Assembly: GCF_041563035.1 (NCBI RefSeq)
Contig: NZ_JBFFNS010000013.1
Location: forward strand, 9,353-73,352
DNA: 64,000 bases
Origin: Sulfurimonas sp.
Lineage (GTDB): Bacteria; Campylobacterota; Campylobacteria; Campylobacterales; Sulfurimonadaceae
Reading direction: 5' to 3'
Shown piece by piece: positions 8,061 to 36,228 of the stretch. The position numbers and the translations under genes were made by a program. Numbering within the stretch: the first letter of the stretch is position 1; every line of letters begins with the position of its first letter. The notes beneath the pieces are model-generated. The model was given only the letters and a program-made list of their open reading frames with translations. It did no database searches and was not told the DNA's origin.

Positions 8061-8123
8061 GAGTGGGAAGTTACGACGCCAAACAAAAGCGCCGTAATCT
8101 TTAAATACTTATACTATTTTTTT

Positions 8124-8258
8124 TTAAAAAACCATGTCTAAATGTGGTGACGTAGACGGAATATTAACTCCGGCATCTTCATAAGCTGCCATATGATGAG
8201 CAAATGCACTTGAAGCTAAAGCTCCGACTAATAATGCTAACGTAATAAACTTTTTCAT
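8124..8258 (-). CDS. Small secreted protein, 44 aa: MKKFITLALLVGALASSAFA-HHMAAYEDAGVNIPSTSPHLDMVF
   Basis: Translated by hand (below the ORF-track cutoff). AAGGA RBS, classical signal peptide ending AFA, extended -10 TGTTAAAAT upstream and a hairpin downstream. Confidence 0.75.
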   Translation of the reverse strand: MKKFITLALLVGALASSAFAHHMAAYEDAGVNIPSTSPHLDMVF

Positions 8259-8400
8259 ATTTATTCCTTTGTTTTGAGATAGCGTATTTTAACATCGTAG
8301 TGTTAGTTGAGTGTAAGTAGTCTAGTAAACAGTTTAAAGGATGCTAATTAAAGTTTGAAGTATTTATTTTATGGGATTGTAAAAGAGTTGAATAAGTTGA

Positions 8401-24705: not shown

Positions 24706-25179
24706 ATGTTATACATAATATGTGCTTTAAAATCAGAAGCTCAAGCTTTTGTCGATAAATACAAACTTCCAAAAAACAGGCAAAATGCACAAATCACTCT
24801 AATAGTAAGCGGGGTAGGCTCTGAGAATATGTTTAATGCAACAAAAGATGCTGTAACTAATATGAGTAATAATGATACAATCATCAATGTAGGCATCTGT
24901 GGTGGAGATAAAAAGTTTGCTATTGGGGAGCTTATAGATGCAAGAGATGAAAATCTTACATGCGTAGTATCTGAAATCTCAGAACATGGTCAGTATGAAC
25001 TTGTAGATATGGAATCTGAGGGGTTTTTAAAAGCTGTGCAGAATGTAGAGAATAAATATATTTTCAAAGTCGTATCAGATCATTTTGAACCTCATAAAGT
25101 AACCAAAGATAAAACGAAATCTCTTATATTTAATGTTATAGATGATATAAACAATAAAATAAATTTTAAGGCCAATTAA
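24706..25179 (+). CDS. Short nucleoside phosphorylase/MTA-SAH nucleosidase-like protein
   Basis: ALKSEA, INVGICGG, VDMESEGF and KVVSDH resemble PNP_UDP_1 motifs; only 157 aa. Confidence 0.65.
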   Translation: MLYIICALKSEAQAFVDKYKLPKNRQNAQITLIVSGVGSENMFNATKDAVTNMSNNDTIINVGICGGDKKFAIGELIDARDENLTCVVSEISEHGQYELVDMESEGFLKAVQNVENKYIFKVVSDHFEPHKVTKDKTKSLIFNVIDDINNKINFKAN

Positions 25180-26855
25180 TGAAATACATCATTTTACTAT
25201 TACTAGCTATTTTAACTCTAAATGCAAGCACATCTGAGGAAATGAAACTAAAAAAACAGATTGGCCGTATGCTTGTTATAGGATTTGAGAATCAAAGCGT
25301 TAATCAAAACACTGAAATTGTAAAACAGATGCAGAAATACGATCTTGGTGGAGTTATTTTATTTGATAAATTTTATCAAAAAAGAAGCATCACTAAAAAT
25401 ATAGATTCACCAAAACAACTTCAAGAGCTAACTTCAAAACTTCAAAAATTCTCACGAAAACCTCTTTTAATATCTGTTGATCAAGAGGGTGGAAATGTAG
25501 CACGACTAAAACATTACTATGGATTTGATAGATTTCCATCTGCAAAAGAGGTCTCATTTCTTTCAACAAGACAGGCAAAAGATATATATGACAAACAATC
25601 ACAGATGCTTGAAGAAAATAATATCAACTGTAACTTTGCTCCTGTTGTTGATTTGGATATAAATCCTAAAAACAAAGTTATCTCAGAACTGGAACGCTCA
25701 TTTGGAGATTCAGGTCAAAAAGTAACTAAATACGCAAAAATAATGATAGATGCACAGGCAAAGCATAATGTCATAAGTGTTTTAAAGCATTTCCCAGGTC
25801 ATGGTTCATCACTTGGAGATTCACACAAAGGTTTTGTAGATATCTCAAACACTTGGACTCAAAAAGAGTTAATACCCTATCAAAATCTTATAGATGCAAA
25901 CAAAGTAGATATGATAATGAGTGCTCATGTTTTTAACTCTACACTAGACCCTAAATATCCTGCGACACTTTCATATAGTATAAATACTAAACTCCTTCGA
26001 GAAAAGATGGGCTTTAAAGGCGTGCTTATAAGTGATGATTTGCAGATGAAAGCAATCACAGAGCATTACACTCTAAAAGAGACAGTTACAAGAGCTATAA
26101 ACTCAGGCGTAGATATTCTTCTCTTTGGAAACCAGTTAGCATCTAATAATGCAGATGAGTTGGTTAAACTAATCTACTCTCAGGTTAAGAGTGGATCTAT
26201 TTCAAAGAAAAGGATTGAAGAAGCAAACACAAGAATAGAAAACTTGCATACAAAAAACTCTATAGTTCAACGACCAATAGAGTTTGGTGAAGAACGCATA
26301 GAGATGACTAAAGCTTACATCAAACAGCACTACGCTCTAGAGACAAAAGACATAACAATAGACCCCAAGGTTATAGTTCTACACTGGACTGCTGTTATGG
26401 ACTTCGAGGATTGCTTTAAACGACTAAAAGGAAACACACTCTACAGTGACAGAGGTGATATAGCAGATGCTGGAGCACTAAACGTATCTTCTCACTTTTT
26501 GGTAGCTCGTGATGGGACTATCTATCAGCTAATGCCGGACAATTGGATGGCGAGACATGTCATAGGACTTAACTACTCAAGTATCGGTATAGAAAATGTT
26601 GGTGGAGAAGATAATGTTAAAGATGATTTAACTCCTGCGCAAGTAGAATCAAATATCAAACTTGTAAAATATTTAAAAGCAAAGTATCCAAACATAGAGT
26701 ACCTCATCGGTCATCATGAATATCAAGAGATGGAAAGGTCTGCTCTTTGGTTAGAAAAAGATGCAGAGTATAGAACAGAAAAAGCTGATCCTGGAAAGAA
26801 GTTTATGAATAAGGTCAGAAAGAATGTTAAAGAATTAGGACTAAAGAAACCATAG
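25179..26855 (+). CDS. Exported fusion: GH3 beta-N-acetylglucosaminidase (NagZ-type) + Amidase_2 N-acetylmuramoyl-L-alanine amidase
   Basis: Signal peptide. NagZ motifs SVDQEGG, KHFPGHGSSLGDSH and SDDLQM. Amidase motifs VLHWT, SSHFLV, ARHVIGLNYSSIGIE, GHHE and KADPG. Confidence 0.9.
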   Translation: MKYIILLLLAILTLNASTSEEMKLKKQIGRMLVIGFENQSVNQNTEIVKQMQKYDLGGVILFDKFYQKRSITKNIDSPKQLQELTSKLQKFSRKPLLISVDQEGGNVARLKHYYGFDRFPSAKEVSFLSTRQAKDIYDKQSQMLEENNINCNFAPVVDLDINPKNKVISELERSFGDSGQKVTKYAKIMIDAQAKHNVISVLKHFPGHGSSLGDSHKGFVDISNTWTQKELIPYQNLIDANKVDMIMSAHVFNSTLDPKYPATLSYSINTKLLREKMGFKGVLISDDLQMKAITEHYTLKETVTRAINSGVDILLFGNQLASNNADELVKLIYSQVKSGSISKKRIEEANTRIENLHTKNSIVQRPIEFGEERIEMTKAYIKQHYALETKDITIDPKVIVLHWTAVMDFEDCFKRLKGNTLYSDRGDIADAGALNVSSHFLVARDGTIYQLMPDNWMARHVIGLNYSSIGIENVGGEDNVKDDLTPAQVESNIKLVKYLKAKYPNIEYLIGHHEYQEMERSALWLEKDAEYRTEKADPGKKFMNKVRKNVKELGLKKP

Positions 26856-28334
26856 ATGCAAAGTGCTTTCTCATCTCTTGACTGGTCTGTTTTTGGAGCT
26901 TATTTTCTAATTCTCGCCATTACTTCATACATTTTAGCTCAGGCAAAAATAAAAACTTCAAGAGAGTACTTTGTAAGTGCCAACTCCATGCCTATGTTTG
27001 CAGTTGCCATCTCTGTTTTAGCCACGTCTCAATCAGCCGCAACCTTTTTAGGAGCACCTGAGTTTTCATACAAAAACGATTTTACCTTTATAGGTTTTTA
27101 TATCTCTGGTTTGGTCGCTGTTATCTTTGTGGCCTATGTTCTTATCCCTAAGTTTTACGCTATGAGAGCGGTTACCGTTTATGAACTTTTAGAGACTAGA
27201 TACGGCGAGTCTGCAAAGAAACAAGCGGGGATCATGTTTCTCATCGGTCGGGTGCTTGCAAGCGGGGCAAGACTCTACATAGGTGCTTTAGCAATCTCGA
27301 TGATTCTCTTTGGAGATATTATCTTCATAAATGTTCTACTCTCTATCATCATACTGATGCTTGGAGCCTTGGTCTATACATATTTTGGCGGTATAAAGTC
27401 TGTCATTTTAAGCGACATCATTCAAGCCATTACCTATGTCGGAGCAGGTATTGTAGTACTTATCTATCTATACTACTCTCTTGATAGCATAAACATTATG
27501 CAAGTGCTAAGCGAGAACGATAAACTCCGTCTTGTTGATACTTCATTAGATGGGAAGTTTAGTATCATCGGGCTATTAAGCGGTTGGCTGCTTCTAAATA
27601 TTGCCGCTTTTGGAATGGATCAGGATATGACTCAAAGAGTTCTTAGCTGTAAAAATAAACAAGAAGCTGCAAAGTCTCTTATCGTCTCCATCTTACTTAC
27701 CATCCCTGTAGTTTTACTCTTCCTTGCCATCGGTGCCCTACTCTTTGTCTTTTATCATCAAGCATCCGTAGTACAAAGTTTTGATGGAGAAAACATCACT
27801 ATATTTATGTACTACATCTTAAATGAGATGCCAGACGGCCTTCGCGGTTTAGTAACTGTCGGAGCGATTGCCGCAGCACTTTCAAGTACAAACTCGGTTC
27901 TTGGAGCTATGGCATCTGTAGCCATCGAAGACCTATATAAACCTTGGAAACTAAGACAAGGCAAAATAGATGAGATGCACTTTGTTAAAGCATCAAAAAG
28001 AGCAGTTGTATTTTTTGCAATTGTCTTATCTATAATGGCAGTTGTCAGTTACTTCTGGCAAAGATATAGTGACCTCTCACTAATCAGTTTTGCACTTGGT
28101 GTTATGGCTTTTGCATATACTGGTCTCTTAGGAGTTTTTTTCTCAGCTATATTTACAAATAGAGGAGACTCAAAACTAGTTCCTTTTGCGCTTGTCGGTG
28201 GCTTTATAACCGTACTTTCACTTCAGCCTTACACTTTTGGCATCAGCCTTGGTTTTTCATGGCAGATAGTCATTGGGACGATTGTTGCTTTTGGGATTAT
28301 GCAATTAAAATCTTCTAAGGCTAAAAATGAGTGA
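26856..28334 (+). CDS. Sodium:solute symporter (SSS) family transporter
   Basis: EYFVSANSMP, SVLATSQSAATFLG, TVYELLETRYG, YTYFGGIKSVILSD, DQDMTQRVL and AAALSS motifs. Confidence 0.9.
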   Translation: MQSAFSSLDWSVFGAYFLILAITSYILAQAKIKTSREYFVSANSMPMFAVAISVLATSQSAATFLGAPEFSYKNDFTFIGFYISGLVAVIFVAYVLIPKFYAMRAVTVYELLETRYGESAKKQAGIMFLIGRVLASGARLYIGALAISMILFGDIIFINVLLSIIILMLGALVYTYFGGIKSVILSDIIQAITYVGAGIVVLIYLYYSLDSINIMQVLSENDKLRLVDTSLDGKFSIIGLLSGWLLLNIAAFGMDQDMTQRVLSCKNKQEAAKSLIVSILLTIPVVLLFLAIGALLFVFYHQASVVQSFDGENITIFMYYILNEMPDGLRGLVTVGAIAAALSSTNSVLGAMASVAIEDLYKPWKLRQGKIDEMHFVKASKRAVVFFAIVLSIMAVVSYFWQRYSDLSLISFALGVMAFAYTGLLGVFFSAIFTNRGDSKLVPFALVGGFITVLSLQPYTFGISLGFSWQIVIGTIVAFGIMQLKSSKAKNE

Positions 28335-29409
28335 ACTATATATCGGTGTTATGTCAGGGACAAGTATGGACGGTGTCGATATAGCTCTTTGTGAGATAGA
28401 CAGCACTAAATGCTCTCTTGTAGACTCTGCACTATATCACTACGATGGTGAGCTTGAGTCTGAAATACTTAAAGTTATAAACGGCTCCACTACACTAGAG
28501 CAAATAGGCACTATTGATAACAAGCTTGGAAATATGTTTGCAGATATAATAAACACATTTTTAAAATATAAAAAAATAGACCCTTCAACCATAAAAGCTA
28601 TAGGTCTTCATGGTCAAACACTCTGGCACGCTCCAGATGCTGACAACCCATTTTCAATGCAACTTGGGTGTCCTAATGTCGTAAGTGCAAAAACTGGCAT
28701 CCAAGTAGTAGCGGACTTTAGAAGAATGGATATGGCAAATGGTGGGCAAGGTGCACCTTTTGCTCCCGCTTTTCATCAAGAAGTATTTAAGCATCTGGAT
28801 AAAAAAACAGCTGTTTTAAATATTGGTGGAATGGCAAATATCACCCTTTTGGGTGATACGTTAAAAGGCTGGGATACCGGCTGTGGAAATGTTCTGATGG
28901 ACTACTGGAGTATAAATGATTCAGATATTGGTTATGACCTCAATGCCGAGTTTGCTCTTAGAGGAGAAGTTAAAGAAGATCTTCTTGATAGTTTTTTAAA
29001 AGATGAGTACTTTGCCAAACTTCCTCCAAAGAGTACAGGACGTGAATATTTTAACGCTACTTGGCTTGCAAACCATCTTCCACTTTTTGACACTATAAAA
29101 GCAGAAGACATCCAACGTACTCTGCTTGAACTAACAGCTAAAAGTATCGCTAATGATGCCAACAATACAGATGCAGAGCTTCTTATAGTCTGTGGTGGTG
29201 GCGCACAAAATCCACTTCTAATGCAAAGACTAAGTGAGCTGTGCAAGGCAGATATAAAAGTCAGTGATGAGTTTGAAGTAAGTTCTAGCTACATGGAAGC
29301 AATGGCATTTGCATGGCTTGCATACAAAAGAGTTCATAGAGAAGTTGTAGAGCTCTCAAGCGTAACAGGTGCTACAAAAGACTCTATTTTAGGCGGAATT
29401 TATGGATAA
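28327..29409 (+). CDS. anmK: Anhydro-N-acetylmuramic acid kinase
   Basis: GVMSGTSMDGVD, HGQTL, GGQGAP, LNIGGMAN, DTGCGN, CGGGAQN and EAMAFAW motifs. Confidence 0.95.
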   Translation: MSELYIGVMSGTSMDGVDIALCEIDSTKCSLVDSALYHYDGELESEILKVINGSTTLEQIGTIDNKLGNMFADIINTFLKYKKIDPSTIKAIGLHGQTLWHAPDADNPFSMQLGCPNVVSAKTGIQVVADFRRMDMANGGQGAPFAPAFHQEVFKHLDKKTAVLNIGGMANITLLGDTLKGWDTGCGNVLMDYWSINDSDIGYDLNAEFALRGEVKEDLLDSFLKDEYFAKLPPKSTGREYFNATWLANHLPLFDTIKAEDIQRTLLELTAKSIANDANNTDAELLIVCGGGAQNPLLMQRLSELCKADIKVSDEFEVSSSYMEAMAFAWLAYKRVHREVVELSSVTGATKDSILGGIYG

Positions 29410-30340
29410 GACAAAAGCGTGGTTGGGTACTACTCCCTATAGAGACTATGAGATAAGCATAGCATCTGCAGATGCAAGTTTTAGAAAATACTATAGGCTG
29501 TCTGGGGCGAACAAAACACTCCTGCTTATGGACTCATCACTGGAAAAAGATTCTCTTGCTCCTTTTATAGATGTGACTTCAAGACTCTTGGATGTAGATG
29601 TTAATGCTCCTAGGATTTTAGAGAAAAACCTTAAAGATGGTTTTTTGATTATTGAAGATTTTGGGAATATTCACTATCTAAATATACTAAATGATACAAA
29701 CTACAAAGAGCTTTACTCAAAAGCAATAGATACAATCATAACTATGCAAGATGCAGATACAAAAGATTTACCACTTTACGACAAAGCTTTTTTACATTTT
29801 GAGATGGATTTGATGAAAGATTGGTACTTAGAGAAGAACCTAAAAGTAACTCTAAATAAATCTCAGAAAAAGACCATTGAAAAGTCGCTAGAGACAATCT
29901 CAAATGTAGTTCTTTCTCAGCCACAAAACGTCTTTGTTCACCGTGATTATCACTCAAGAAATATCATGTTGACAAAGGATGACAAAATAGGTGTTATAGA
30001 CTATCAAGATGCAATGAGAGGAGCGATTACTTATGATCTAGTCTCGCTTCTAAAAGATTGCTACATTGCTTATGAAAGAGAAGAGATAGAAAAACTTGTT
30101 TTAGAGTTTCGTGACAAAAAAGGCTTGGACGCAAGCAATAGCGAATTTTTAAAATGGTTTGACTTTATGGGAATGCAACGACATATAAAAGTCCTAGGAA
30201 TCTTCTCTAGGCTATTCCTGCGTGACTCTAAAGACGGTTACTTAAAAGATATTCCCCTAACACTAAAATACACTATAGATGCAGCTAGCAGATACGAAGA
30301 GACAAAAGATTTGGCAGAACTTTTAAAAGAACTTCAATGA
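29402..30340 (+). CDS. amgK: MurNAc/GlcNAc anomeric kinase (APH-fold)
   Basis: DASFRKYYR, EDFG, HRDYHSRN, IDYQDA, YDLVSLLKD and QRHIKVLGIF motifs; directly upstream of murU. Confidence 0.9.
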   Translation: MDKTKAWLGTTPYRDYEISIASADASFRKYYRLSGANKTLLLMDSSLEKDSLAPFIDVTSRLLDVDVNAPRILEKNLKDGFLIIEDFGNIHYLNILNDTNYKELYSKAIDTIITMQDADTKDLPLYDKAFLHFEMDLMKDWYLEKNLKVTLNKSQKKTIEKSLETISNVVLSQPQNVFVHRDYHSRNIMLTKDDKIGVIDYQDAMRGAITYDLVSLLKDCYIAYEREEIEKLVLEFRDKKGLDASNSEFLKWFDFMGMQRHIKVLGIFSRLFLRDSKDGYLKDIPLTLKYTIDAASRYEETKDLAELLKELQ

Positions 30341-30993
30341 AAGCGATGATACTCGCAGCTGGTCGTGGTGAGAGAATGCGACCGCTTACAGACACTCTTC
30401 CAAAACCACTTCTTGAAGTTAGAGGAAAACCTCTTATAGTCTGGCATCTACAAAAGCTTGCACAGAATGGCTTTAGAGATATAGTAATAAATATTGCTCA
30501 CCTTGGATATAAAATACCAGAAGCTCTTGGCGACGGCTCGAAATATGGAGTAAATATAACTTACTCTGATGAACAAGACGAAGGAGCTTTAGAGAGTGCA
30601 GGTGGAATCGTAAAAGCTTTAGCTCTTCTCGGTAATGAACCTTTTTTAGTTGTTAATGGCGACGTCTTTTGTGACTATGATTTTGATGCTGATTTTGACC
30701 TAGGAGAGAATTTAGCCCATCTTATTTTAGTTCCCAATCCTGAGCATAATTTGGACGGAGACTTTGGCTTAAATGGAACTTCCGTTTTAAATGAAGACCA
30801 AATAAAATATACTTTTTCAGGCATAGGCTACTATAATCCAAAACTATTTAGTGAGTTAGAATATGGCAAATCTGCTTTAGCCCCACTACTTAGAGAGAAA
30901 ATAAAAAATAAAAAAGTTACTGGTGAACTATATAAAAATATGTGGCATGATATCGGTACACCACAAAGATTGAAAGATATAAATAATGATTAA
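30337..30993 (+). CDS. murU: N-acetylmuramate alpha-1-phosphate uridylyltransferase
   Basis: MILAAGRGERMRPLTD..PKPLL, LESAGG, VNGDV and WHDIGT motifs; ATGA overlap with amgK. Confidence 0.9.
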   Translation: MKAMILAAGRGERMRPLTDTLPKPLLEVRGKPLIVWHLQKLAQNGFRDIVINIAHLGYKIPEALGDGSKYGVNITYSDEQDEGALESAGGIVKALALLGNEPFLVVNGDVFCDYDFDADFDLGENLAHLILVPNPEHNLDGDFGLNGTSVLNEDQIKYTFSGIGYYNPKLFSELEYGKSALAPLLREKIKNKKVTGELYKNMWHDIGTPQRLKDINND

Positions 30994-31957
30994 ATTACTT
31001 TTAGCTGCACTAATAGCAAGCACACTATCGGCAAAATATACAAACTGTGAATTTCAAAACAAGCATTACATAGATGTGTGTAAAAAGGCTGTCAAAAATG
31101 GTGTCTCATACAACTATGCGAACAAATTTTTACTTTCTTATTTTAAAACACAAAAGTATGATGAGATAAGTTGGAAGTATCTTCAACCTCGTCATATAAA
31201 GACTCATAAAAAGAGTGAAAAAAAAGCTAATAATGTATTGGTAAAACATATTCCAAAAATAGTGCTCCATCTACAAAAATACAAAGAGGTCTATGACTAC
31301 AGCGAGAAAAAGTATGGTGTAAATCGTGAGATAATAGCAGCTATACTAATGAAAGAGACAAAACTTGGAAAGATAAAACCAACTCATGATGCCTTTATAG
31401 TATTTAATACCATCGTTGTTAGAACAGATCCAAAAACTTCACGCCAAAAGTGGCTGCTAAAGATGGGTAAAACCAATATGGTCTCCATCATCACACACTG
31501 CTATAAAAAAGGGGTAGAACCTGAACAGTGTAATCTACCGAGTTCTTATGCCGGTGCTGTTGGCATTCCTCAGTTTATGCCAAACAGTTTTGTATATACA
31601 GATGGCTATAAATCTAAACATGCTGATCTGACTAAGATGGAAGATGCTATTGTCTCTGCCAGTAAATTTCTTCATAAAAAAGCGAATTTTTCTGAGCTTA
31701 TAAAGTGGGACAAGATGCCAAATATGCCAAAAGTAGAATCAGAGTGGTATGACTATGAGCACAAATATGAAAATGCTTCACTTGTTTACACAGAGAACAA
31801 GCATGGGAAAAAGTATAAGTGCTTTACATGTAAGAAAAAAGATTTTGATTATTTTAAAGAGTATGCTAAAAAGATTATGAGGTATAACAACTCATCTAAC
31901 TACGCTATCGGGGTTATGAGGCTGGCATACGACTCACACTATTTGCTCAGTAAATAG
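30986..31957 (+). CDS. Lytic murein transglycosylase, MltB/SLT_2-like
   Basis: Signal peptide, ILMKET catalytic Glu region, SSYAGAVGIPQFMP and RYNNSSNY motifs. Confidence 0.82.
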   Translation: MIKLLLAALIASTLSAKYTNCEFQNKHYIDVCKKAVKNGVSYNYANKFLLSYFKTQKYDEISWKYLQPRHIKTHKKSEKKANNVLVKHIPKIVLHLQKYKEVYDYSEKKYGVNREIIAAILMKETKLGKIKPTHDAFIVFNTIVVRTDPKTSRQKWLLKMGKTNMVSIITHCYKKGVEPEQCNLPSSYAGAVGIPQFMPNSFVYTDGYKSKHADLTKMEDAIVSASKFLHKKANFSELIKWDKMPNMPKVESEWYDYEHKYENASLVYTENKHGKKYKCFTCKKKDFDYFKEYAKKIMRYNNSSNYAIGVMRLAYDSHYLLSK

Positions 31958-32750
31958 TAGCCTTCAGCGTATGAGTCTTTCCCGGTTCTACTAATCTAAA
32001 ATCATCAAATGCATTGGCTGATTCGATGCAGACAAAATCCTTATATGCCTCATCTCTCATAGCACTCATTCTTTTACCTTTTTCTATCCAAGGATTCCAG
32101 ATTACTACTGAAGATGAACCTTCATTGTTTATGTGGATAGTTCTATCTTTATCTGTTAGTAAGATTTCAGAATTTACCTCTTGGTAAACTCTATCTACTT
32201 CCTCTTCAAACACAACATCTCCACTTTGAGTTAATTGCTCATTTGTAAGAGCATCTAAGAATGGTTTTTTATCAAGACCTTTTACTTTTGCATCTGAAAT
32301 ATGTGAAACAGGAAAATAAGTATGAAGAGCTTGTGTGATTTTAAAAGTTTTATCATCAATGTTTTTTGTAGTAAGTTCCATAGTAAGCTTGTCTGAGACA
32401 GTTACTTTTAACTCCAGTTCAAACTTGTATGGCCATAGAGTTAATGTCGCTTCTGAGTGCTTTAAAATGAGTATAACTTCCGTTGTGTTGGCATCTAACT
32501 CTTTAGTACTTGTATGTTCAAACAACGCTGTCCTTGCAAAGCCGTGCTGAGGCAAGTTTGGGTTATTCATTCCAAAAGATGGCCAGCAGACAGGAATTCC
32601 ACCACGGATGGCTTTGCCCACTTCAAAATCACTTATTTCACTAAGCCACAAAAGAGGTTTTTCACCTTTACGAGAGTAGTGAAAAATATGTGCTCCTTGA
32701 AGTGCGATCTTTGCAGATGCAGAGGCGTTGTTTATTTCAACAATTACCAT
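31947..32750 (-). CDS. D-hexose-6-phosphate mutarotase (aldose 1-epimerase family, YeaD-like)
   Basis: LQGAH, AIRGGIPVCWP, HGFAR, ALHTYF, VIWNPW and FVCIE motifs. Confidence 0.9.
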   Translation of the reverse strand: MVIVEINNASASAKIALQGAHIFHYSRKGEKPLLWLSEISDFEVGKAIRGGIPVCWPSFGMNNPNLPQHGFARTALFEHTSTKELDANTTEVILILKHSEATLTLWPYKFELELKVTVSDKLTMELTTKNIDDKTFKITQALHTYFPVSHISDAKVKGLDKKPFLDALTNEQLTQSGDVVFEEEVDRVYQEVNSEILLTDKDRTIHINNEGSSSVVIWNPWIEKGKRMSAMRDEAYKDFVCIESANAFDDFRLVEPGKTHTLKATIY

Positions 32751-34012
32751 GATGATTTCTTATGCCATTTAACTGCATACATAAGTATAAAGAGATAACA
32801 GACTATGCCAACTAGATATGATGACTGCATATCTCCACTTATTTGAGCGACTTTACCAAATGCAAGTGGAAGTATCGCTCCGCCGGCAATTGCCATGATT
32901 AGAAGTGCACTTCCCTGAGCTGTGTACTTACCAAGACCGTCTAATGCCAGAGGCCAGATAGTAGGCCAGACAAGAGCATTGGCAAATCCAAGAAGCGCAA
33001 CGAAAGTAACCGTATCTGGAAGTGTAGGTACTCCACTCCATCCCCATAAGATCTCTGATATTTGATGTGAAGTGCTCGAACTGTAAGCAACTCCTATTAA
33101 AAACAAAATCCCCACAATAGCAGAGCTCATAAGTGCTTTTTCTTGTGAAAGAAACTTAGGTATAAAGGCAACTCCGACTAGATACCCAAAAACCATAAAG
33201 ACCATCGTATAAGATGTAAGCGCAGTTGCATTTTCAACATTCAGTCCTTGAGCATAAAGACCGATAGTATCACCGGCTATAACTTCTATACCTACATAAA
33301 AAAATAGAGCAACAGCCCCAAGTACAACACGAGGAAAATGAAAAATTGTATCTTTATCGTAAGAATCCTCTTTTTCAAACTCCAACTCTGGAATAGATGA
33401 AAACTTTACTAAAGCTATCAGTCCAGTTAAAACAACTGCCATGATGATGTATGGAATAATAAGCCTAGACGCTAACTCTTTTGTATCTATAGACGCAAGA
33501 CTCTCAGATGATAGAGATGGAATATCTGCTAGGATTAAAGATGTAAAAAGAAGTGGAACTAAGACTCCTGCACTTTTATTTATCAATCCCATAATAGAGA
33601 TTCTCATTGCGGCACTCTCTATTGGTCCAATCAAAACCACATAAGGGTTAGATGCAGTTTGAAGTATTGTAAGCCCGGTTCCAAGAGTAAATAGTGCCAC
33701 TAAAAATAGTAAAAAGTCAGCACTAAGAGCGGCAGGGATAAAAACTAAACTACCCACAACCATAACTCCCAGACCAATGGCCATACCATTTTTGTATCCA
33801 GTACGTTCAAGTACAAATGACATCGGCAGAGCCATAACCGTATAAGCTATATAAAAAGCAAAAGTTACAAAGAGAGCTTGAAACTCATTCAAGTCACAGA
33901 TGACTTTTAAAAATGGGATAAGTGAACCATTTAACCAAGTTACAAAACCAAAAATAAAAAATAAAAGACCAATTATTATCATTGCAAACGAGTTAGTATG
34001 GTTTCTACGCAA
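32744..34012 (-). CDS. MFS sugar permease, glucose/galactose (GluP/NagP/FucP) family
   Basis: FFIFGFVTWLNGSLIP, LQTASNPY, FYVGIEV, WPTIWPLAL and MAIAGGA motifs. Confidence 0.9.
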   Translation of the reverse strand: MRRNHTNSFAMIIIGLLFFIFGFVTWLNGSLIPFLKVICDLNEFQALFVTFAFYIAYTVMALPMSFVLERTGYKNGMAIGLGVMVVGSLVFIPAALSADFLLFLVALFTLGTGLTILQTASNPYVVLIGPIESAAMRISIMGLINKSAGVLVPLLFTSLILADIPSLSSESLASIDTKELASRLIIPYIIMAVVLTGLIALVKFSSIPELEFEKEDSYDKDTIFHFPRVVLGAVALFFYVGIEVIAGDTIGLYAQGLNVENATALTSYTMVFMVFGYLVGVAFIPKFLSQEKALMSSAIVGILFLIGVAYSSSTSHQISEILWGWSGVPTLPDTVTFVALLGFANALVWPTIWPLALDGLGKYTAQGSALLIMAIAGGAILPLAFGKVAQISGDMQSSYLVGIVCYLFILMYAVKWHKKSSW

Positions 34013-34832
34013 ATTTTAATCCTTCGAGATATTTAGCAACTCCGTCTTCATCATTTGTATGAGGTAGAATAATATCAGCCTCATTTTTAACTTCCACCTG
34101 TGCATTCGCCATTGCAACAGAAGTCGCTGCTAATGCAAACATCCCTAAATCATTAAAATTGTCACCAAATACAGTAAGTTTAGAGAGATCAAACCCGCTG
34201 TACTCGCTAACACTTCTAATGCCATGAACTTTGTCAGCATCTTTATGAAGAATAGTTAAAAAATAGCAGCCGACATAAGCCTCAGGTGCTAGGATAAACT
34301 TTAAAGAATTTCCAAATATTTTCTCTAAAAGAGCTGCTAACTGACGAAGCAGTTTCTCTTCACCCATATAGACTATTTTAAAGTTATCATCCATTGCTCT
34401 GATTTCTTTGCACTCCTGCAAGTTATCATCTTTTGCGTAGCGAGTAAGTACTTCTTTTTGGTGCTCATTTAAAATGCTTGAATAAAGGAAAGCCTCATTT
34501 AGATTCTCATCTGCAAGTGCTAAAACAAATGGATATATACCAAACTTTCCACCTTCATTTATAATAATATCTGCTATCTCCTTACTTATAAACTTAGTGT
34601 CAATTATCTTTTTGTCCATAGTTGCTACTAATGCACCATCGAGAAGAATCATGGGAGCATTTATATGTACATTTTCTAAAAACTGTGCTGTTTTTTTGTA
34701 TGTTCTTGCAGTCGCAACGCTTAAAATAGAGTTTGTAGATTTTGAATTCCAAATAGTTTTAGTATAATCACTAATAGATAAATCAGTTTTCAAAAAAGTA
34801 TGGTCAAGGTCTGTAATATAAATATTTTTCAT
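34005..34832 (-). CDS. Cof-type HAD-IIB phosphatase
   Basis: TDLDHT (DxDxT), VATAR, DKVHG and FGDNFNDLGMF motifs. ATG at 34832 is preferred as the start. Confidence 0.88.
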   Translation of the reverse strand: MKNIYITDLDHTFLKTDLSISDYTKTIWNSKSTNSILSVATARTYKKTAQFLENVHINAPMILLDGALVATMDKKIIDTKFISKEIADIIINEGGKFGIYPFVLALADENLNEAFLYSSILNEHQKEVLTRYAKDDNLQECKEIRAMDDNFKIVYMGEEKLLRQLAALLEKIFGNSLKFILAPEAYVGCYFLTILHKDADKVHGIRSVSEYSGFDLSKLTVFGDNFNDLGMFALAATSVAMANAQVEVKNEADIILPHTNDEDGVAKYLEGLKFA

Positions 34833-34864
34833 GTTGAGATTATAACCAAAATAGGAAGAAGTAG

Positions 34865-35560
34865 ATGAAGAGAGCAATAATTACCGGTGCGAGTAGTGGG
34901 ATTGGCAAAGAGATATGTAAAAGACTTCTAGAACTACACTATGAGGTTATCGGAATCAGTAGAAGTATAACAGATGAGGAGTTTAACACTCCGCATTTCA
35001 CGCCACTTCAAGCTAATCTATCAGATGAAAAATCAACACTTCTAACCTGCAACAGTTTAAAAGATGAAAAGATTGATATGTTAATAAACTGTGCCGGTTT
35101 TGGAAGGTTTGAGCCGCATGAAGAACTAAGTCCAAAGACTATTACGGATATGACTTTTTTGAACCTGACAGCGCCGATGCTTCTAACAAATGCTCTACTT
35201 AGATCTCTGAAGAAAAATGATGGATATCTTATAAATATCAACTCCATCGAAGCTATCAAAACGAGTAAATTTGCAGGTGTATACAGTGCCACAAAAGCTG
35301 GTTTAAAAGCCTTTAGTGATTCTCTTTTTGAAGAGACCAGAAAGAGCGGACTTAGCGTAACAAACATAAATCCGGATATGACTCAGACATCTTTTTATGA
35401 TGAACTGCGTTTTGACACAAGCGATAAAGAAGAAGAAAGACTATTGGCATCTGATATAGCAGATGCTGTTGAACATATTCTCACTATGAGAAAAGGTGCA
35501 GTCATAAGCGACTACACAATAAGAAGTTTGAAATTTGGAATTTCTAAAAAAAGTAAATAG
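34865..35560 (+). CDS. Short-chain dehydrogenase/reductase
   Basis: ITGASSGIG, INCAG and YSATK motifs. Confidence 0.88.
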   Translation: MKRAIITGASSGIGKEICKRLLELHYEVIGISRSITDEEFNTPHFTPLQANLSDEKSTLLTCNSLKDEKIDMLINCAGFGRFEPHEELSPKTITDMTFLNLTAPMLLTNALLRSLKKNDGYLININSIEAIKTSKFAGVYSATKAGLKAFSDSLFEETRKSGLSVTNINPDMTQTSFYDELRFDTSDKEEERLLASDIADAVEHILTMRKGAVISDYTIRSLKFGISKKSK

Positions 35561-35566
35561 TTAAGA

Positions 35567-35821
35567 CTAGAGTTTAATATCTAACTTATTTATTTTTTGT
35601 CTTTCTGTAGATCGAAGAAAAGCTATATTTTTTTTAATTTTATTCATGGAGATTTTCGTCTCATCTTGAAGTGTATATAAAAGCTCGGTAGCTTCTTTGA
35701 GAAGGTAAATTGCCTGTTCAACCTCTTCTGCTTCACTTAATTCTGGAATATCATCCAAAAGCGCATCTAAAGCGTCAGTGTTTTTTTCAATAATGGCTAT
35801 TTTTAATTTAGTTAGCCACAT
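35567..35821 (-). CDS. Small helical flagellar protein downstream of fliS (FliT-like)
   Basis: 84 aa helical protein overlapping the fliS stop; occupies the position of fliT in fliD-fliS-fliT operons. Confidence 0.55.
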   Translation of the reverse strand: MWLTKLKIAIIEKNTDALDALLDDIPELSEAEEVEQAIYLLKEATELLYTLQDETKISMNKIKKNIAFLRSTERQKINKLDIKL

Positions 35822-36182
35822 TATTAGTTTCTCTCCAAGCGTCTAAAAGACCTCTGAAAACATTACTAACCTCATCAAGTTGTTCAATATTCTTTTCAAC
35901 TCCAGCAGATGCTAAAAGTTGAATCTGATAGTTGTAAAGACCTTCTAAATATGTAGCAACGTCACCTTGGGAAGTGTCCAAAACTAAAATAAGCTCGGTA
36001 ATAATAGCTATAGAACGATTTGTCCAATAAACTCTTTTTTCAATATCACCATCTTTGATAGCTTTTTTTGCTTGTGCATTAAAACGAAGAACACCCTCAT
36101 AAAGCATCTCTATAAGTTTTGCCGGAGACTCGATTCCTACATTGTTTTGTGCATAAATATTATGAGCATTACTACCATACAT
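35808..36182 (-). CDS. fliS: Flagellin export chaperone FliS
   Basis: ESPAKLIEMLYEG and LEGLYNY motifs; ATG at 36182 with an AAGGA RBS. Confidence 0.93.
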   Translation of the reverse strand: MYGSNAHNIYAQNNVGIESPAKLIEMLYEGVLRFNAQAKKAIKDGDIEKRVYWTNRSIAIITELILVLDTSQGDVATYLEGLYNYQIQLLASAGVEKNIEQLDEVSNVFRGLLDAWRETNNVAN

Positions 36183-36228
36183 GTTAGATCCTTTTTTACC
36201 ATCTTTACTAATTTCTTTCATGATAAAT

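What the first reader, a model, noticed from the sequence alone, without database searches (positions are those of the whole stretch)
24706..34832. Complete, apparently periplasm-first peptidoglycan-recycling system (NagZ-amidase, SSS importer, AnmK, AmgK, MurU, MltB) in a Campylobacterota genome
Seen: seven tightly coupled genes (overlaps or 0-nt gaps) at 24706-31957, converging on a HAD phosphatase / GluP-type permease / hexose-6-P mutarotase operon. No ampG, murQ or mupP lies in the cluster. Known: AnmK-MupP-AmgK-MurU is the Pseudomonas anabolic shortcut to UDP-MurNAc; it bypasses MurA and gives intrinsic fosfomycin resistance, and is normally fed by AmpG and cytoplasmic NagZ/AmpD. Helicobacter and Campylobacter are generally regarded as lacking it. 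Inference: the transglycosylase and the exported NagZ-amidase reduce murein to anhMurNAc + GlcNAc outside the cytoplasm, the symporter imports anhMurNAc, and the GluP/NagP-like permease imports GlcNAc. This would be an AmpG-independent route, and would also let a chemolithoautotroph scavenge cell-wall sugars from neighbours.
Basis: partly seen in the sequence, partly recalled or inferred. Interest (0 to 1): 0.82.

Follow-up and report, generated by a model that had tools for sequence, protein, structure and literature searches.

The report
AmpG-free cell-wall sugar salvage operon
A Sulfurimonas genome carries an operon that seems to trim its own cell-wall fragments outside the cytoplasm, import the freed sugar through a sodium-symporter-type carrier and turn it straight back into wall precursor, and that carrier is a good candidate for the free anhydro-MurNAc importer that has not yet been identified.

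Summary
Seven overlapping or abutting + strand genes (24706-31957) converge on a three-gene minus-strand operon (34877-31947).

- **The genes:** a small MTAN-fold protein, a signal-peptide NagZ(GH3)-Amidase_2 fusion, an SSS transporter, AnmK, an AmgK-like kinase, MurU and an SLT_2 lytic transglycosylase. The converging operon encodes a Cof-type HAD, a NagP-like MFS permease and a YeaD-like mutarotase.
- **What the genome lacks:** the genome (Sulfurimonas, near S. gotlandica, 100% complete) has no AmpG, MurQ, NagA, Mpl or MupP equivalog. Its only GH3 and only Amidase_2 domains are in the exported fusion.
- **Transporter linkage:** in 301 Campylobacterota genomes, the SSS orthologue occurs in 18 of 18 AnmK-positive and 0 of 283 AnmK-negative genomes. 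Nine of 12 distant homologues (30-48% identity; Planctomycetota, a Rheinheimera-like gammaproteobacterium and unnamed metagenome contigs) lie beside anmK-murQ, NamZ or a MurK-MurQ fusion.
- **Export:** relatives carry NagZ and the amidase fused or split, and 33 of the 34 orthologues read have a signal peptide.

Best reading: a sugars-only, anabolic, AmpG-independent route, anhMurNAc to UDP-MurNAc and GlcNAc to UDP-GlcNAc. The MurNAc-6P phosphatase step is unassigned; the Cof-HAD is only a candidate. Nothing has been tested biochemically. I rate it a new variant of a known kind, of moderate to high interest.

The parts
24706..25179 (+). 157-aa protein with a minimal MTAN/futalosine-hydrolase (PNP_UDP_1) fold and no signal peptide. 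It overlaps the next gene by 1 nt. Its role in the operon is unknown.
   Evidence: No Pfam hit at the default threshold; weak PNP_UDP_1 hit, E 0.026. AF2 model with mean pLDDT 91.8. Foldseek PDB top hits are MTANs, E about 1e-6, TMq 0.6-0.75. Conserved upstream of the GH3 gene in about a third of the Sulfurimonas-type loci.
25179..26855 (+). Exported bifunctional NagZ-type GH3 beta-N-acetylglucosaminidase (residues 24-355) fused to an AmpD/AmiD-type Amidase_2 MurNAc-L-Ala amidase (395-539). Signal peptide MKYIILLLLAILTLNA|STSEE.
   Evidence: Pfam domains. The NagZ motif KHFPGHGSSLGDSH and the ISDDLQM nucleophile region can be read. Best PDB match is the secreted B. subtilis YbbD/NagZ, E 3e-44, well ahead of cytoplasmic NagZs at about 1e-27. 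The amidase domain aligns to T7 lysozyme, including the HHE zinc site. It is the only GH3 and the only Amidase_2 in the genome. Signal peptides are conserved in orthologues.
26856..28334 (+). SSS-family (PF00474) secondary transporter, the predicted importer of free 1,6-anhydro-MurNAc and possibly MurNAc.
   Evidence: Pfam and NCBIfam. An orthologue is present in 18/18 AnmK+ and 0/283 AnmK- genomes of the phylum sample. It sits directly upstream of anmK in relatives. Nine of 12 distant homologues lie beside anmK-murQ, NamZ or MurK-MurQ. Best PDB match is the sialic-acid symporter SiaT (5NV9), E 9e-39, with the carboxylate-binding Ser60 and Thr63 conserved.
28327..29409 (+). AnmK, anhydro-N-acetylmuramic acid kinase (anhMurNAc to MurNAc-6P).
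   Evidence: NF007139, 448 bits, above the 367 cut-off. PDB AnmK structures 3CQY and 3QBW match at E 1e-82 and 4e-79.
29402..30340 (+). AmgK-like anomeric MurNAc/GlcNAc kinase of the APH fold.
   Evidence: NF045759 AmgK matches over the full length at E 8e-77, but at 258 bits it is below the 550 cut-off. The HRDYHSRN and IDYQD kinase motifs can be read. Always adjacent to anmK and murU in relatives.
30337..30993 (+). MurU, MurNAc-alpha-1-phosphate uridylyltransferase.
   Evidence: NF045761, 308 bits, above the 250 cut-off. P. putida MurU 4Y7T matches at E 2e-60 over residues 1-214.
30986..31957 (+). Exported SLT_2-family lytic transglycosylase, a distant relative of MltB/Slt35. It has a signal peptide but no lipobox. 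It would produce the 1,6-anhydro ends.
   Evidence: PF13406, E 2e-32. The MltB equivalog model scores only 72 bits against a 281 cut-off. PDB SltB/MltB match at E 1e-7, with the ET..G and GxxQFMP motifs aligned. Follows murU in most Sulfurimonas loci and in none of the Sulfurovum loci.
31947..32750 (-). YeaD-like hexose-6-phosphate mutarotase (Aldose_epim), last gene of the converging operon.
   Evidence: PF01263, E 1e-47. PDB 2HTA matches at E 9e-39 and yeast hexose-6-P mutarotase 2CIQ at E 6e-31.
32744..34012 (-). NagP-like MFS permease, the predicted GlcNAc importer.
   Evidence: NF046060 NagP_SO3503 matches at E 2e-150 and 502 bits, below the 625 cut-off. The gluP subfamily model scores 236 bits, above its 202 cut-off. 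HAD-NagP-mutarotase is a conserved block in Sulfurimonas.
34005..34877 (-). Cof-type HAD-IIB sugar-phosphate phosphatase, a candidate for the missing MurNAc-6P phosphatase step but unproven. The true start is probably the ATG at 34832.
   Evidence: PF08282, E 4e-41. Present in 18/18 AnmK+ genomes but also in 23 AnmK- genomes. In Sulfurovum it lies in the same locus as murU in 11 of 14 loci, without NagP. Orthologues align from residue 15-16.

Best explanation
This is a sugars-only, purely anabolic peptidoglycan salvage system that does not use AmpG.

Inferred steps:
1. The exported SLT_2 lytic transglycosylase, or other lytic transglycosylases, releases GlcNAc-1,6-anhMurNAc-peptides in the periplasm.
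2. The exported NagZ-amidase fusion removes GlcNAc and the stem peptide there.
3. The SSS transporter imports the free sugar acid anhMurNAc, and possibly MurNAc.
4. AnmK opens the anhydro ring to give MurNAc-6P.
5. A phosphatase removes the 6-phosphate. This enzyme is unassigned: the neighbouring Cof-type HAD is one candidate and a housekeeping HAD is another.
6. AmgK makes MurNAc-alpha-1-P.
7. MurU makes UDP-MurNAc.
8. In parallel, the GlcNAc released in the periplasm enters through the NagP-like permease. AmgK converts it to GlcNAc-1-P, and GlmU converts that to UDP-GlcNAc.

Shown computationally: gene content and order; family assignments; conserved signal peptides; genome-wide absence of AmpG, MurQ, NagA, Mpl and a MupP equivalog; and the phylogenetic and syntenic coupling of the SSS transporter to AnmK.

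Inferred: all substrates and activities, and the presence of GlmU.
For: - **Families.**
- **Export.** The fusion and the transglycosylase have hydrophobic N-terminal leaders, and the cytoplasmic enzymes do not. Of the 34 fused, GH3-only and amidase-only orthologues read in Sulfurimonas, Sulfuricurvum and Sulfurovum, 33 have leaders, and several Sulfurovum amidases have a lipobox-like ..TAC.
- **One copy each.** Every genome with the cluster has one GH3 (one assembly shows none) and one Amidase_2 (one genome has two), either fused or split. No cytoplasmic NagZ or AmpD is therefore available.
- **Genome-wide absences.** AmpG TIGR00901 is absent in 19 of 19 genomes; the control detects it in E. 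coli and Caulobacter. There is no MurQ, no NagA and no Mpl. The best MupP score is 87 bits against a 359 cut-off.
- **SSS-AnmK coupling.** Orthologues of at least 58% identity are in 18/18 AnmK+ genomes. In the 283 AnmK- genomes the best match is 28% identical (Fisher p 3e-29, not corrected for phylogeny). The transporter is in the same locus as anmK in 17/17 genome loci.
- **Modular loss.** A congener (G219) lacks SSS and AnmK genome-wide and has no murU left in the cluster, yet keeps the fusion, AmgK, the transglycosylase, NagP, HAD and the mutarotase. This fits separate MurNAc and GlcNAc branches.
- **Distant homologues.** SSS homologues at 30-48% identity sit in anmK-murQ-SSS(-GH3) operons, beside an exported NamZ, or beside a MurK-MurQ-like fusion, in 9 of 12 look-ups.
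- **Closest structure.** SiaT transports a carboxylated N-acetyl sugar. Its carboxylate ligands Ser60 and Thr63 are invariant in this family (PMC5931594).
Against: - There is no biochemical, genetic or expression evidence. No RNA run was found, and the promoter and terminator scans were uninformative.
- The AmgK-like, NagZ, NagP-like and MltB-like proteins all score below the NCBIfam equivalog cut-offs.
- The MurNAc-6P phosphatase is unassigned. Homologues of the Cof-HAD at 36-63% identity occur in 23 AnmK-negative genomes in unrelated contexts, one of them next to ribD. The PGP-like HAD is near-universal in the phylum.
- In other phyla the GH3 next to the SSS gene lacks a signal peptide, so the family may also carry the disaccharide.
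- SiaT's Arg135 is not at the aligned column; arginines sit at 132 and 139 instead.
- The presence of MurA and GlmU was assumed, not checked.
Confidence: 0.72

Rival explanations
1. The pathway is the same, but the SSS transporter carries the disaccharide GlcNAc-1,6-anhMurNAc, or mainly free MurNAc, rather than anhMurNAc.
For: In the anmK-murQ-SSS-GH3 operons of other phyla the adjacent GH3 has no signal peptide. That would suit import of a NagZ substrate. In the Rheinheimera-like locus the neighbour is an exported NamZ, which releases MurNAc. In Sulfurovum only the amidase sits next to the SSS gene.
Against: In this genome and 17 of 18 relatives the single GH3 enzyme carries a signal peptide, so an imported disaccharide could not be split. 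SSS carriers with known substrates, and the closest structure SiaT, take monosaccharide-sized solutes. AnmK, not a MurNAc 6-kinase, is the invariable partner in Campylobacterota.
Confidence: 0.15
2. The system serves mainly to scavenge cell-wall debris from other bacteria (cross-feeding) rather than to recycle the cell's own turnover products.
For: All trimming enzymes are extracytoplasmic, and the importers take free monosaccharides that could diffuse in from outside. A related SSS-family logic exists in the MurNAc auxotroph Tannerella, whose MurT is described as sodium symporter superfamily (PMC5790795).
Against: The operon includes its own lytic transglycosylase and AnmK, which deal with the 1,6-anhydro products typical of a Gram-negative cell's own turnover. 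There is no NagA or MurQ, so the sugars cannot serve as carbon or nitrogen food. No outer-membrane uptake component was seen in the cluster. The two roles are not mutually exclusive.
Confidence: 0.25
3. The Cof-type HAD at 34005-34832 is the functional replacement of MupP (a MurNAc-6P phosphatase), and the YeaD-like mutarotase supplies the anomer that AmgK needs.
For: - No MupP equivalog is present.
- The HAD is present in 18/18 AnmK+ genomes.
- It lies in the murU locus in 11 of 14 Sulfurovum loci, without NagP.
- It converges on the operon in this window.
- Cof-type HADs include known sugar-phosphate phosphatases such as YidA and BT4131.
Against: Homologues of similar identity occur in 23 AnmK-negative genomes, including G219, which has lost AnmK. 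Their contexts there are unrelated, for example rbfA-HAD-rimP-ribD, which suggests a housekeeping phosphatase. In several congeners the HAD block lies about 1.8 Mb from the cluster.
Confidence: 0.35
4. The co-location is incidental: the exported NagZ-amidase is an autolysin for cell separation, and the SSS protein carries an unrelated solute.
For: All annotations are generic ('sodium:solute symporter'). Nothing has been tested experimentally.
Against: The SSS and AnmK profiles match perfectly, 18/18 against 0/283. The gene order is conserved with translational coupling. The link to anmK, murQ or NamZ recurs in unrelated phyla.
Confidence: 0.04

Closest known systems
Pseudomonas anabolic recycling shortcut AnmK-MupP-AmgK-MurU (Gisin 2013; Borisova 2017, PMC5371407; Fumeaux and Bernhardt 2017, PMC5371409)
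   Same: The same cytoplasmic chemistry is predicted: anhMurNAc to MurNAc-6P to MurNAc to MurNAc-1-P to UDP-MurNAc. AnmK and MurU pass the curated equivalog cut-offs. MurU matches the P. putida structure 4Y7T at E 2e-60.
   Different: - There is no AmpG, no cytoplasmic NagZ or AmpD, no MupP equivalog and no Mpl.
- Trimming is periplasmic and entry is through an SSS carrier.
- The genes form one operon, which to my knowledge (not checked here) is not the case in Pseudomonas.
Tannerella forsythia MurT (MurNAc transporter of the murTKQ operon, described as 'sodium symporter superfamily', PMC5790795)
   Same: A non-PTS, non-AmpG inner-membrane carrier for a free muramic sugar, fed by periplasmic peptidoglycan-trimming enzymes. 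One distant homologue of the window's SSS sits in a murT-murK-murQ-like layout.
   Different: The partner enzyme here is AnmK followed by the anabolic AmgK/MurU branch, not MurK/MurQ. The host is a free-living chemolithoautotroph, which presumably makes MurNAc itself.
Bacillus subtilis extracellular muropeptide rescue (secreted NagZ/YbbD plus AmiE, then MurP)
   Same: NagZ and a MurNAc-L-Ala amidase act outside the cytoplasm and a monosaccharide is imported. The GH3 domain here is closest to YbbD (3BMX, E 3e-44).
   Different: Here the two activities are fused in one polypeptide. The amidase is of the Amidase_2 (AmpD/AmiD/T7 lysozyme) type. The import is by an SSS carrier, not a PTS. The substrate is the 1,6-anhydro sugar. 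From general knowledge, B. subtilis AmiE is a different kind of amidase; this was not checked here.
Proteus mirabilis SiaT (SSS sialic-acid symporter, PDB 5NV9, PMC5931594)
   Same: It is the best structural relative (E 9e-39). Its substrate is also an N-acetylated sugar acid. The carboxylate-binding Ser60 and Thr63 are conserved and invariant in the family.
   Different: Gln82, which binds the glycerol tail of Neu5Ac, is Phe here. Arg135 is not in the same column; conserved arginines lie at 132 and 139. The genomic partners are muramic-acid enzymes, not nan genes.
Stenotrophomonas maltophilia NagX (periplasmic GH20 beta-N-acetylglucosaminidase, PMC13436218) and E. coli AmiD
   Same: These are precedents for periplasmic removal of GlcNAc or peptide from anhydromuropeptides in Gram-negative bacteria. 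That paper notes that free anhMurNAc must use 'an unidentified inner membrane transporter'.
   Different: Those organisms still rely on AmpG and on cytoplasmic NagZ and AmpD. Here the periplasmic enzymes are the only ones present.

Membership tests
AnmK (anhydro-N-acetylmuramic acid kinase) | Score above the curated equivalog cut-off over the full length | tested here: met
   NF007139, 448.4 bits against a 367 cut-off, residues 2-359. PDB AnmK structures match at E 1e-82.
MurU (MurNAc-1-P uridylyltransferase) | Score above the curated equivalog cut-off, and similarity to the solved P. putida enzyme | tested here: met
   NF045761, 307.9 bits against a 250 cut-off. 4Y7T matches at E 2e-60 over residues 1-214.
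AmgK (anomeric MurNAc/GlcNAc kinase) | Score above the curated equivalog cut-off | tested here: not met
   NF045759, 258.5 bits against a 550 cut-off, although it matches over the full length at E 8e-77 and is by far the best family. The APH kinase motifs are present. It is always adjacent to anmK and murU. I treat it as AmgK-like.
NagZ (GH3 beta-N-acetylglucosaminidase of recycling) | GH3 N-terminal domain with the KH(F/I)PG(H/L)GX4D(S/T)H motif | tested here: met
   PF00933, E 3e-68. The motif KHFPGHGSSLGDSH can be read; the motif definition is quoted in PMC13436218.
NagZ (GH3 beta-N-acetylglucosaminidase of recycling) | Cytoplasmic location, as in Gram-negative NagZ, and the equivalog cut-off | tested here: not met
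   A signal peptide is present and conserved. NF003740 scores 181.6 against a 207 cut-off. The domain is closer to the secreted B. subtilis YbbD.
AmpD / AmiD (Amidase_2 anhMurNAc-L-Ala amidase) | Amidase_2 domain with zinc ligands | tested here: met
   PF01510, 76.5 bits against a 26 cut-off, model positions 4-130 of 131. The HHE site aligns with T7 lysozyme. The AmpD equivalog NF008758 scores only 30 bits against 143, so it is not an AmpD orthologue. Being exported, it resembles AmiD in location.
AmpG permease | A TIGR00901 match in the genome | tested here: not met
   No match at E<=0.01 in the window's own genome. None above the cut-off in 19 genomes, while the controls detect it in E. coli and Caulobacter.
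MupP (MurNAc-6P phosphatase, HAD-IA) | An NF009696 equivalog match in the genome | tested here: not met
   The best score is 87 bits against a 359 cut-off, on a PGP-like protein that is near-universal in the phylum.
MltB (lytic murein transglycosylase B) | The TIGR02282 equivalog cut-off | tested here: not met
   72 bits against a 281.4 cut-off. It is a member of the wider SLT_2 family (PF13406, 113 bits against 24.3).
NagP (GlcNAc MFS transporter) | The NF046060 equivalog cut-off | tested here: not met
   501.7 bits against a 625 cut-off, full length, E 2e-150. It passes the gluP subfamily cut-off, 236 against 202.55. I treat it as NagP-like.
SSS family (TC 2.A.21) / SiaT-like sugar-acid symporters | SSF domain, and the substrate carboxylate ligands of SiaT (Ser60, Thr63, Arg135) | tested here: inconclusive
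   PF00474 is met. Ser60 and Thr63 are conserved and invariant in 41 family members. The Arg135 column holds Ala, with conserved Arg132 and Arg139 nearby. Gln82 is Phe.
Tannerella MurT family | Sequence homology to Tanf_08375 | not testable with these tools
   The MurT sequence and the original paper (PMC5075041) were not available. The only link is indirect: an SSS homologue lies beside a MurK-MurQ-like fusion.

The most novel reading that the evidence does not exclude
The SSS protein may represent the missing inner-membrane importer of free 1,6-anhydro-MurNAc. It would belong to a transporter family spread across Campylobacterota, Planctomycetota and Gammaproteobacteria that is always annotated generically. 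With the exported NagZ-amidase, it would define an obligatorily periplasm-first mode of cell-wall sugar recycling that needs no AmpG in Gram-negative bacteria. This mode would also use a non-MupP phosphatase.
Probability: 0.5. Interest if true: 0.72.

Novelty: new variant of a known kind. Interest (0 to 1): 0.58.

Why it matters
Peptidoglycan recycling in Gram-negative bacteria is understood almost entirely through AmpG plus cytoplasmic NagZ and AmpD. Only one alternative importer has been shown, the Agrobacterium YejBEF-YepA ABC system.

A 2026 study of S. maltophilia states that free anhMurNAc must enter by an unidentified transporter (PMC13436218). The SSS family found here is a concrete, easily tested candidate. 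Its support is a perfect phylogenetic profile with AnmK in the 301-genome Campylobacterota sample and repeated operon linkage in other phyla.

The finding also shows that some Campylobacterota, a phylum usually regarded as lacking recycling, have a compact salvage route. That route can only feed wall synthesis, because NagA and MurQ are absent. This makes sense for carbon-limited chemolithoautotrophs.

The fused and split forms of NagZ and the amidase are a natural Rosetta-stone pair for the two trimming steps.

Tried and rejected
- **RNA evidence for co-transcription.** No public RNA run holds the stretch.
- **Promoter and terminator scans.** Neither found more sites than the shuffled controls.
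- **Profile search of named genomes with a wide SSS alignment.** A1 had no conserved stretch and the search failed. The narrower alignment A2 returned only Campylobacterota among the best 80 loci, so the distant contexts had to come from single look-ups.
- **PGP-like HAD-IA (genome contig C33) as MupP.** I rejected it as a specific candidate because it is present in 220 of 301 genomes, including AnmK-negative ones.
- **Is the P0250 SSS clade (SSS-GH20-AnmK-MurQ) from Xanthomonadales?** No. The named relatives are Planctomycetota, mostly Phycisphaerales.
- **Original MurT paper and review.** Not held.
- **Not done.**
  - Phylogeny of anmK, amgK and murU to test transfer from Gammaproteobacteria; no named outgroup set was available.
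  - A formal SignalP run. Signal peptides were judged from the charged n-region, hydrophobic h-region and small-residue c-region pattern, a hydropathy scan, and conservation.

Full report
**1. What is there**

The window is contig C13:9353-73352 of a 2.82-Mb, 54-contig genome scored 100% complete. Best protein hits place it in Sulfurimonas, close to S. gotlandica GD1. The SSS protein is 94% identical to the GD1 protein, and the fusion protein is 83% identical to CBGD1_1442.

Seven lie on the + strand, from 24706 to 31957, and their junctions are a 1-nt overlap, a 0-nt gap and then 8-, 8-, 4- and 8-nt overlaps. Three lie on the - strand, from 34877 to 31947, with 8- and 7-nt overlaps. The 3' ends of the two operons overlap by 11 nt.

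Family scans gave the following.

| Coordinates | Strand | Assignment | Score |
|---|---|---|---|
| 24706-25179 | + | No Pfam family at the default threshold | - |
| 25179-26855 | + | GH3 (residues 24-355) + Amidase_2 (395-539) | E 3e-68; E 3e-21 |
| 26856-28334 | + | SSS transporter | E 6e-28 |
| 28327-29409 | + | AnmK | 448 bits, cut-off 367 |
| 29402-30340 | + | AmgK-like | 258 bits, cut-off 550, full length |
| 30337-30993 | + | MurU | 308 bits, cut-off 250 |
| 30986-31957 | + | SLT_2 transglycosylase | MltB equivalog only 72 bits, cut-off 281 |
| 31947-32750 | - | Aldose_epim, YeaD-like | E 1e-47 |
| 32744-34012 | - | NagP-like MFS | 502 bits, cut-off 625 |
| 34005-34877 | - | Cof-type HAD-IIB | E 4e-41 |

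PDB searches agree with these assignments:
- MurU matches P. putida MurU 4Y7T at E 2e-60.
- AnmK matches 3CQY and 3QBW at E 1e-82 and 4e-79.
- The mutarotase matches 2HTA and yeast hexose-6-P mutarotase.
- The HAD matches Cof-type sugar phosphatases.

**2. Where the trimming enzymes work**

The fusion begins MKYIILLLLAILTLNASTSEE and the transglycosylase begins MIKLLLAALIASTLSAK. Both have a charged start, a strongly hydrophobic core and a small-residue cleavage region. AnmK, AmgK, MurU, the HAD and the mutarotase have none of these features.

The GH3 domain carries the NagZ motif KHFPGHGSSLGDSH. It is much closer to the secreted B. subtilis NagZ/YbbD (E 3e-44) than to cytoplasmic Gram-negative NagZs (about 1e-27). 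The amidase domain aligns with T7 lysozyme across the zinc-site HHE.

In 19 related genomes there is one GH3 per genome (one assembly shows none) and one Amidase_2 per genome (one has two). Three architectures occur directly upstream of the SSS gene:
- the fusion, in this clade and in Sulfuricurvum;
- GH3 alone, in a Sulfurimonas subclade, with a stand-alone amidase elsewhere in the genome;
- the amidase alone, in Sulfurovum, with GH3 elsewhere and several amidases carrying a lipobox-like ..TAC.

Of the 34 orthologues whose N-termini I read, 33 have a signal peptide. The exception has a doubtful start codon. These lineages therefore have no cytoplasmic NagZ or AmpD at all.

**3. What the genome lacks**

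- AmpG (TIGR00901) has no match in this genome and none above the cut-off in all 19 genomes. The same search detects it in the E. coli and Caulobacter controls.
- MurQ is absent; only weak SIS-domain hits to other proteins appear.
- NagA is absent.
- Mpl is absent; the single 81-bit hit is presumably MurC.
- No MupP equivalog exists. The best score is 87 bits against a 359 cut-off, on a PGP-like HAD.

The sugars therefore cannot be catabolised and the stem peptide cannot be re-ligated. Only an anabolic sugar salvage remains possible.

**4. The transporter**

AnmK occurs in only 18 of 301 sampled Campylobacterota genomes, in 5 of 57 genera. By the record titles, these are Sulfurimonadaceae and Sulfurovaceae.

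An orthologue of the SSS protein (58-78% identity) is present in all 18. In the other 283 genomes the best match is 28% identical. The Fisher test gives p 3e-29, but this ignores shared ancestry, so the count by genus (5 of 5 against 0 of 52) is the safer statement.

The SSS gene lies in the same locus as anmK in all 17 fetched genome loci. Among the 80 further loci, 17 of 17 fusion-type and 13 of 14 GH3-only loci with enough downstream sequence also carry anmK.

An exhaustive search of 1.8 billion representative proteins found a family down to about 30% identity. I looked up the genomic context of 12 distant members at 30-48% identity:
- Seven sit in anmK-murQ operons: L057, L059, L061, L145, L156, L157 and L159.
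- One abuts an exported NamZ exo-muramidase: L055, whose protein cluster includes a Rheinheimera mesophila protein.
- One precedes a PIG-L-like gene and an 803-aa BcrAD_BadFG+SIS fusion, a murT-murK-murQ-like layout: L158.
- Three are uninformative.

The named relatives of one of these clades are Planctomycetota, and all carry only generic names.

The best structural relative is the sialic-acid symporter SiaT (5NV9, E 9e-39). SiaT's carboxylate ligands Ser60 and Thr63 are conserved here and invariant in 41 family members. Its Gln82, which binds the glycerol tail of sialic acid, is Phe here. Its Arg135 column holds Ala, flanked by conserved Arg132 and Arg139 (residue roles from PMC5931594). This fits a carboxylated N-acetyl sugar such as (anh)MurNAc, but it does not prove it.

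**5. Two branches**

One congener, G219, lacks AnmK and the SSS orthologue genome-wide. Its locus reads orf157, fusion, AmgK, transglycosylase, converging on mutarotase, NagP and HAD. The SSS gene, anmK and murU are cleanly missing from it.

This supports two modules:
- a MurNAc branch made of SSS, AnmK and MurU;
- a GlcNAc branch made of the exported NagZ, NagP and AmgK, feeding GlmU.

GlmU's presence is assumed. AmgK's dual specificity comes from the family description in NCBIfam.

**6. The unassigned step**

MurNAc-6P must lose its phosphate before AmgK can act.

Evidence for the Cof-HAD:
- It is present in all 18 AnmK-positive genomes.
- It lies in the murU locus in 11 of 14 Sulfurovum loci, without NagP.
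- It converges on the operon in this window.

Evidence against:
- Homologues of comparable identity occur in 23 AnmK-negative genomes, including G219.
- Their contexts there are unrelated. One lies between rbfA and rimP-ribD, which hints at a housekeeping phosphatase.
- In several congeners the SDR|HAD-NagP-mutarotase block is about 1.8 Mb from the cluster.

The PGP-like HAD-IA is near-universal in the phylum, 220 of 301 genomes, so it carries no specific signal. I put the Cof-HAD as the phosphatase at about 0.35.

**7. Points that cut against a simple story**

- In the anmK-murQ-SSS-GH3 operons of other phyla the GH3 lacks a signal peptide. Elsewhere, the family may therefore carry GlcNAc-anhMurNAc. 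In this genome that is unlikely, because no cytoplasmic enzyme could split the disaccharide.
- Four of the proteins fall below the curated equivalog cut-offs.
- No expression data could be found.
- The first gene of the operon has a confident MTAN/futalosine-hydrolase-like fold (pLDDT 91.8; Foldseek E about 1e-6). It has conserved motifs and no obvious place in the pathway.

**8. Comparison with what is known**

The cytoplasmic half is the Pseudomonas AnmK-MupP-AmgK-MurU shortcut (PMC5371407, PMC5371409) without MupP. The extracytoplasmic half resembles the secreted NagZ and amidase rescue route of B. subtilis and the periplasmic salvage of Tannerella. Tannerella's MurNAc carrier MurT is described as belonging to the sodium symporter superfamily (PMC5790795), but I could not test homology to it.

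A periplasmic GH20 glucosaminidase, NagX, was recently shown in S. maltophilia. That paper states that free anhMurNAc needs 'an unidentified inner membrane transporter' (PMC13436218).

My full-text searches found nothing that links an SSS carrier to anmK or that describes peptidoglycan recycling in Sulfurimonas.

**9. Verdict**

This is a new variant of a known kind of system. Its most useful product is a specific, testable candidate for the free-anhMurNAc importer. My confidence in the overall mechanism is about 0.72, and I score interest at 0.58.

Noticed in passing
window 24706-25179 (+): The 157-aa first gene of the operon overlaps the fusion gene by 1 nt. It has a confident minimal MTAN/futalosine-hydrolase (PNP_UDP_1) fold and the conserved motifs ALKxEAQAF, NxGICG, VDMES and KVVSDHFEP. 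It has no obvious role in peptidoglycan recycling. It is conserved upstream of the GH3 gene in about a third of Sulfurimonas-type loci.
   Followed up: partly
L045 (G219:C4:122001-136000): A congener has a reduced cluster: orf157, fusion, AmgK and transglycosylase, converging on mutarotase, NagP and HAD. The SSS gene, anmK and murU have been removed cleanly. It looks like a natural GlcNAc-branch-only variant.
   Followed up: partly
L156, L157, L159 (anmK-murQ-SSS-GH3 operons from metagenomes): In other phyla the homologous SSS gene sits in catabolic anmK-murQ operons next to a GH3 without a signal peptide. There the carrier may take the disaccharide, or NagZ may serve another feed.
   Followed up: partly
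L158:6001-10842: An SSS homologue is followed by a PIG-L-like gene and an 803-aa fusion of a BcrAD_BadFG kinase domain with a SIS (MurQ-like) domain. This is a fused MurK-MurQ in a murTKQ-like layout.
   Followed up: no
L093, L099, L102, L108, L114, L120 (Sulfurovum loci), ORF directly upstream of the SSS gene: The stand-alone Amidase_2 proteins have lipoprotein-like leaders (..LTFTAC, ..LTLTAC, ..LTLGC), recalling the E. coli outer-membrane lipoprotein AmiD.
   Followed up: partly
window 34832-34877 (-): The HAD ORF can start at the TTG at 34877, but orthologues align only from residue 15-16. The true start is probably the ATG at 34832 (MKNIYITDLDHTF, which contains the DxD motif). An SDR gene (34865-35560, +) is divergently placed and stays next to the HAD in several Sulfurimonas genomes.
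   Followed up: partly
L052 (G045:C2), around 5699-8259: In an AnmK-negative relative, the HAD homologue sits between rbfA and rimP-ribD. This hints that the Cof-HAD family may have a housekeeping role such as the riboflavin-pathway phosphatase.
   Followed up: no
window 35808-36221 (-): fliS, the flagellar export chaperone (TIGR00208, 122 bits), lies just beyond the SDR gene. It is unrelated to the finding.
   Followed up: no
window 26000-34000: The G+C content of the cluster is 0.35-0.39. The upstream flank is 0.33 and the region beyond 42 kb is about 0.30. The rise is mild and not diagnostic of recent transfer.
   Followed up: no
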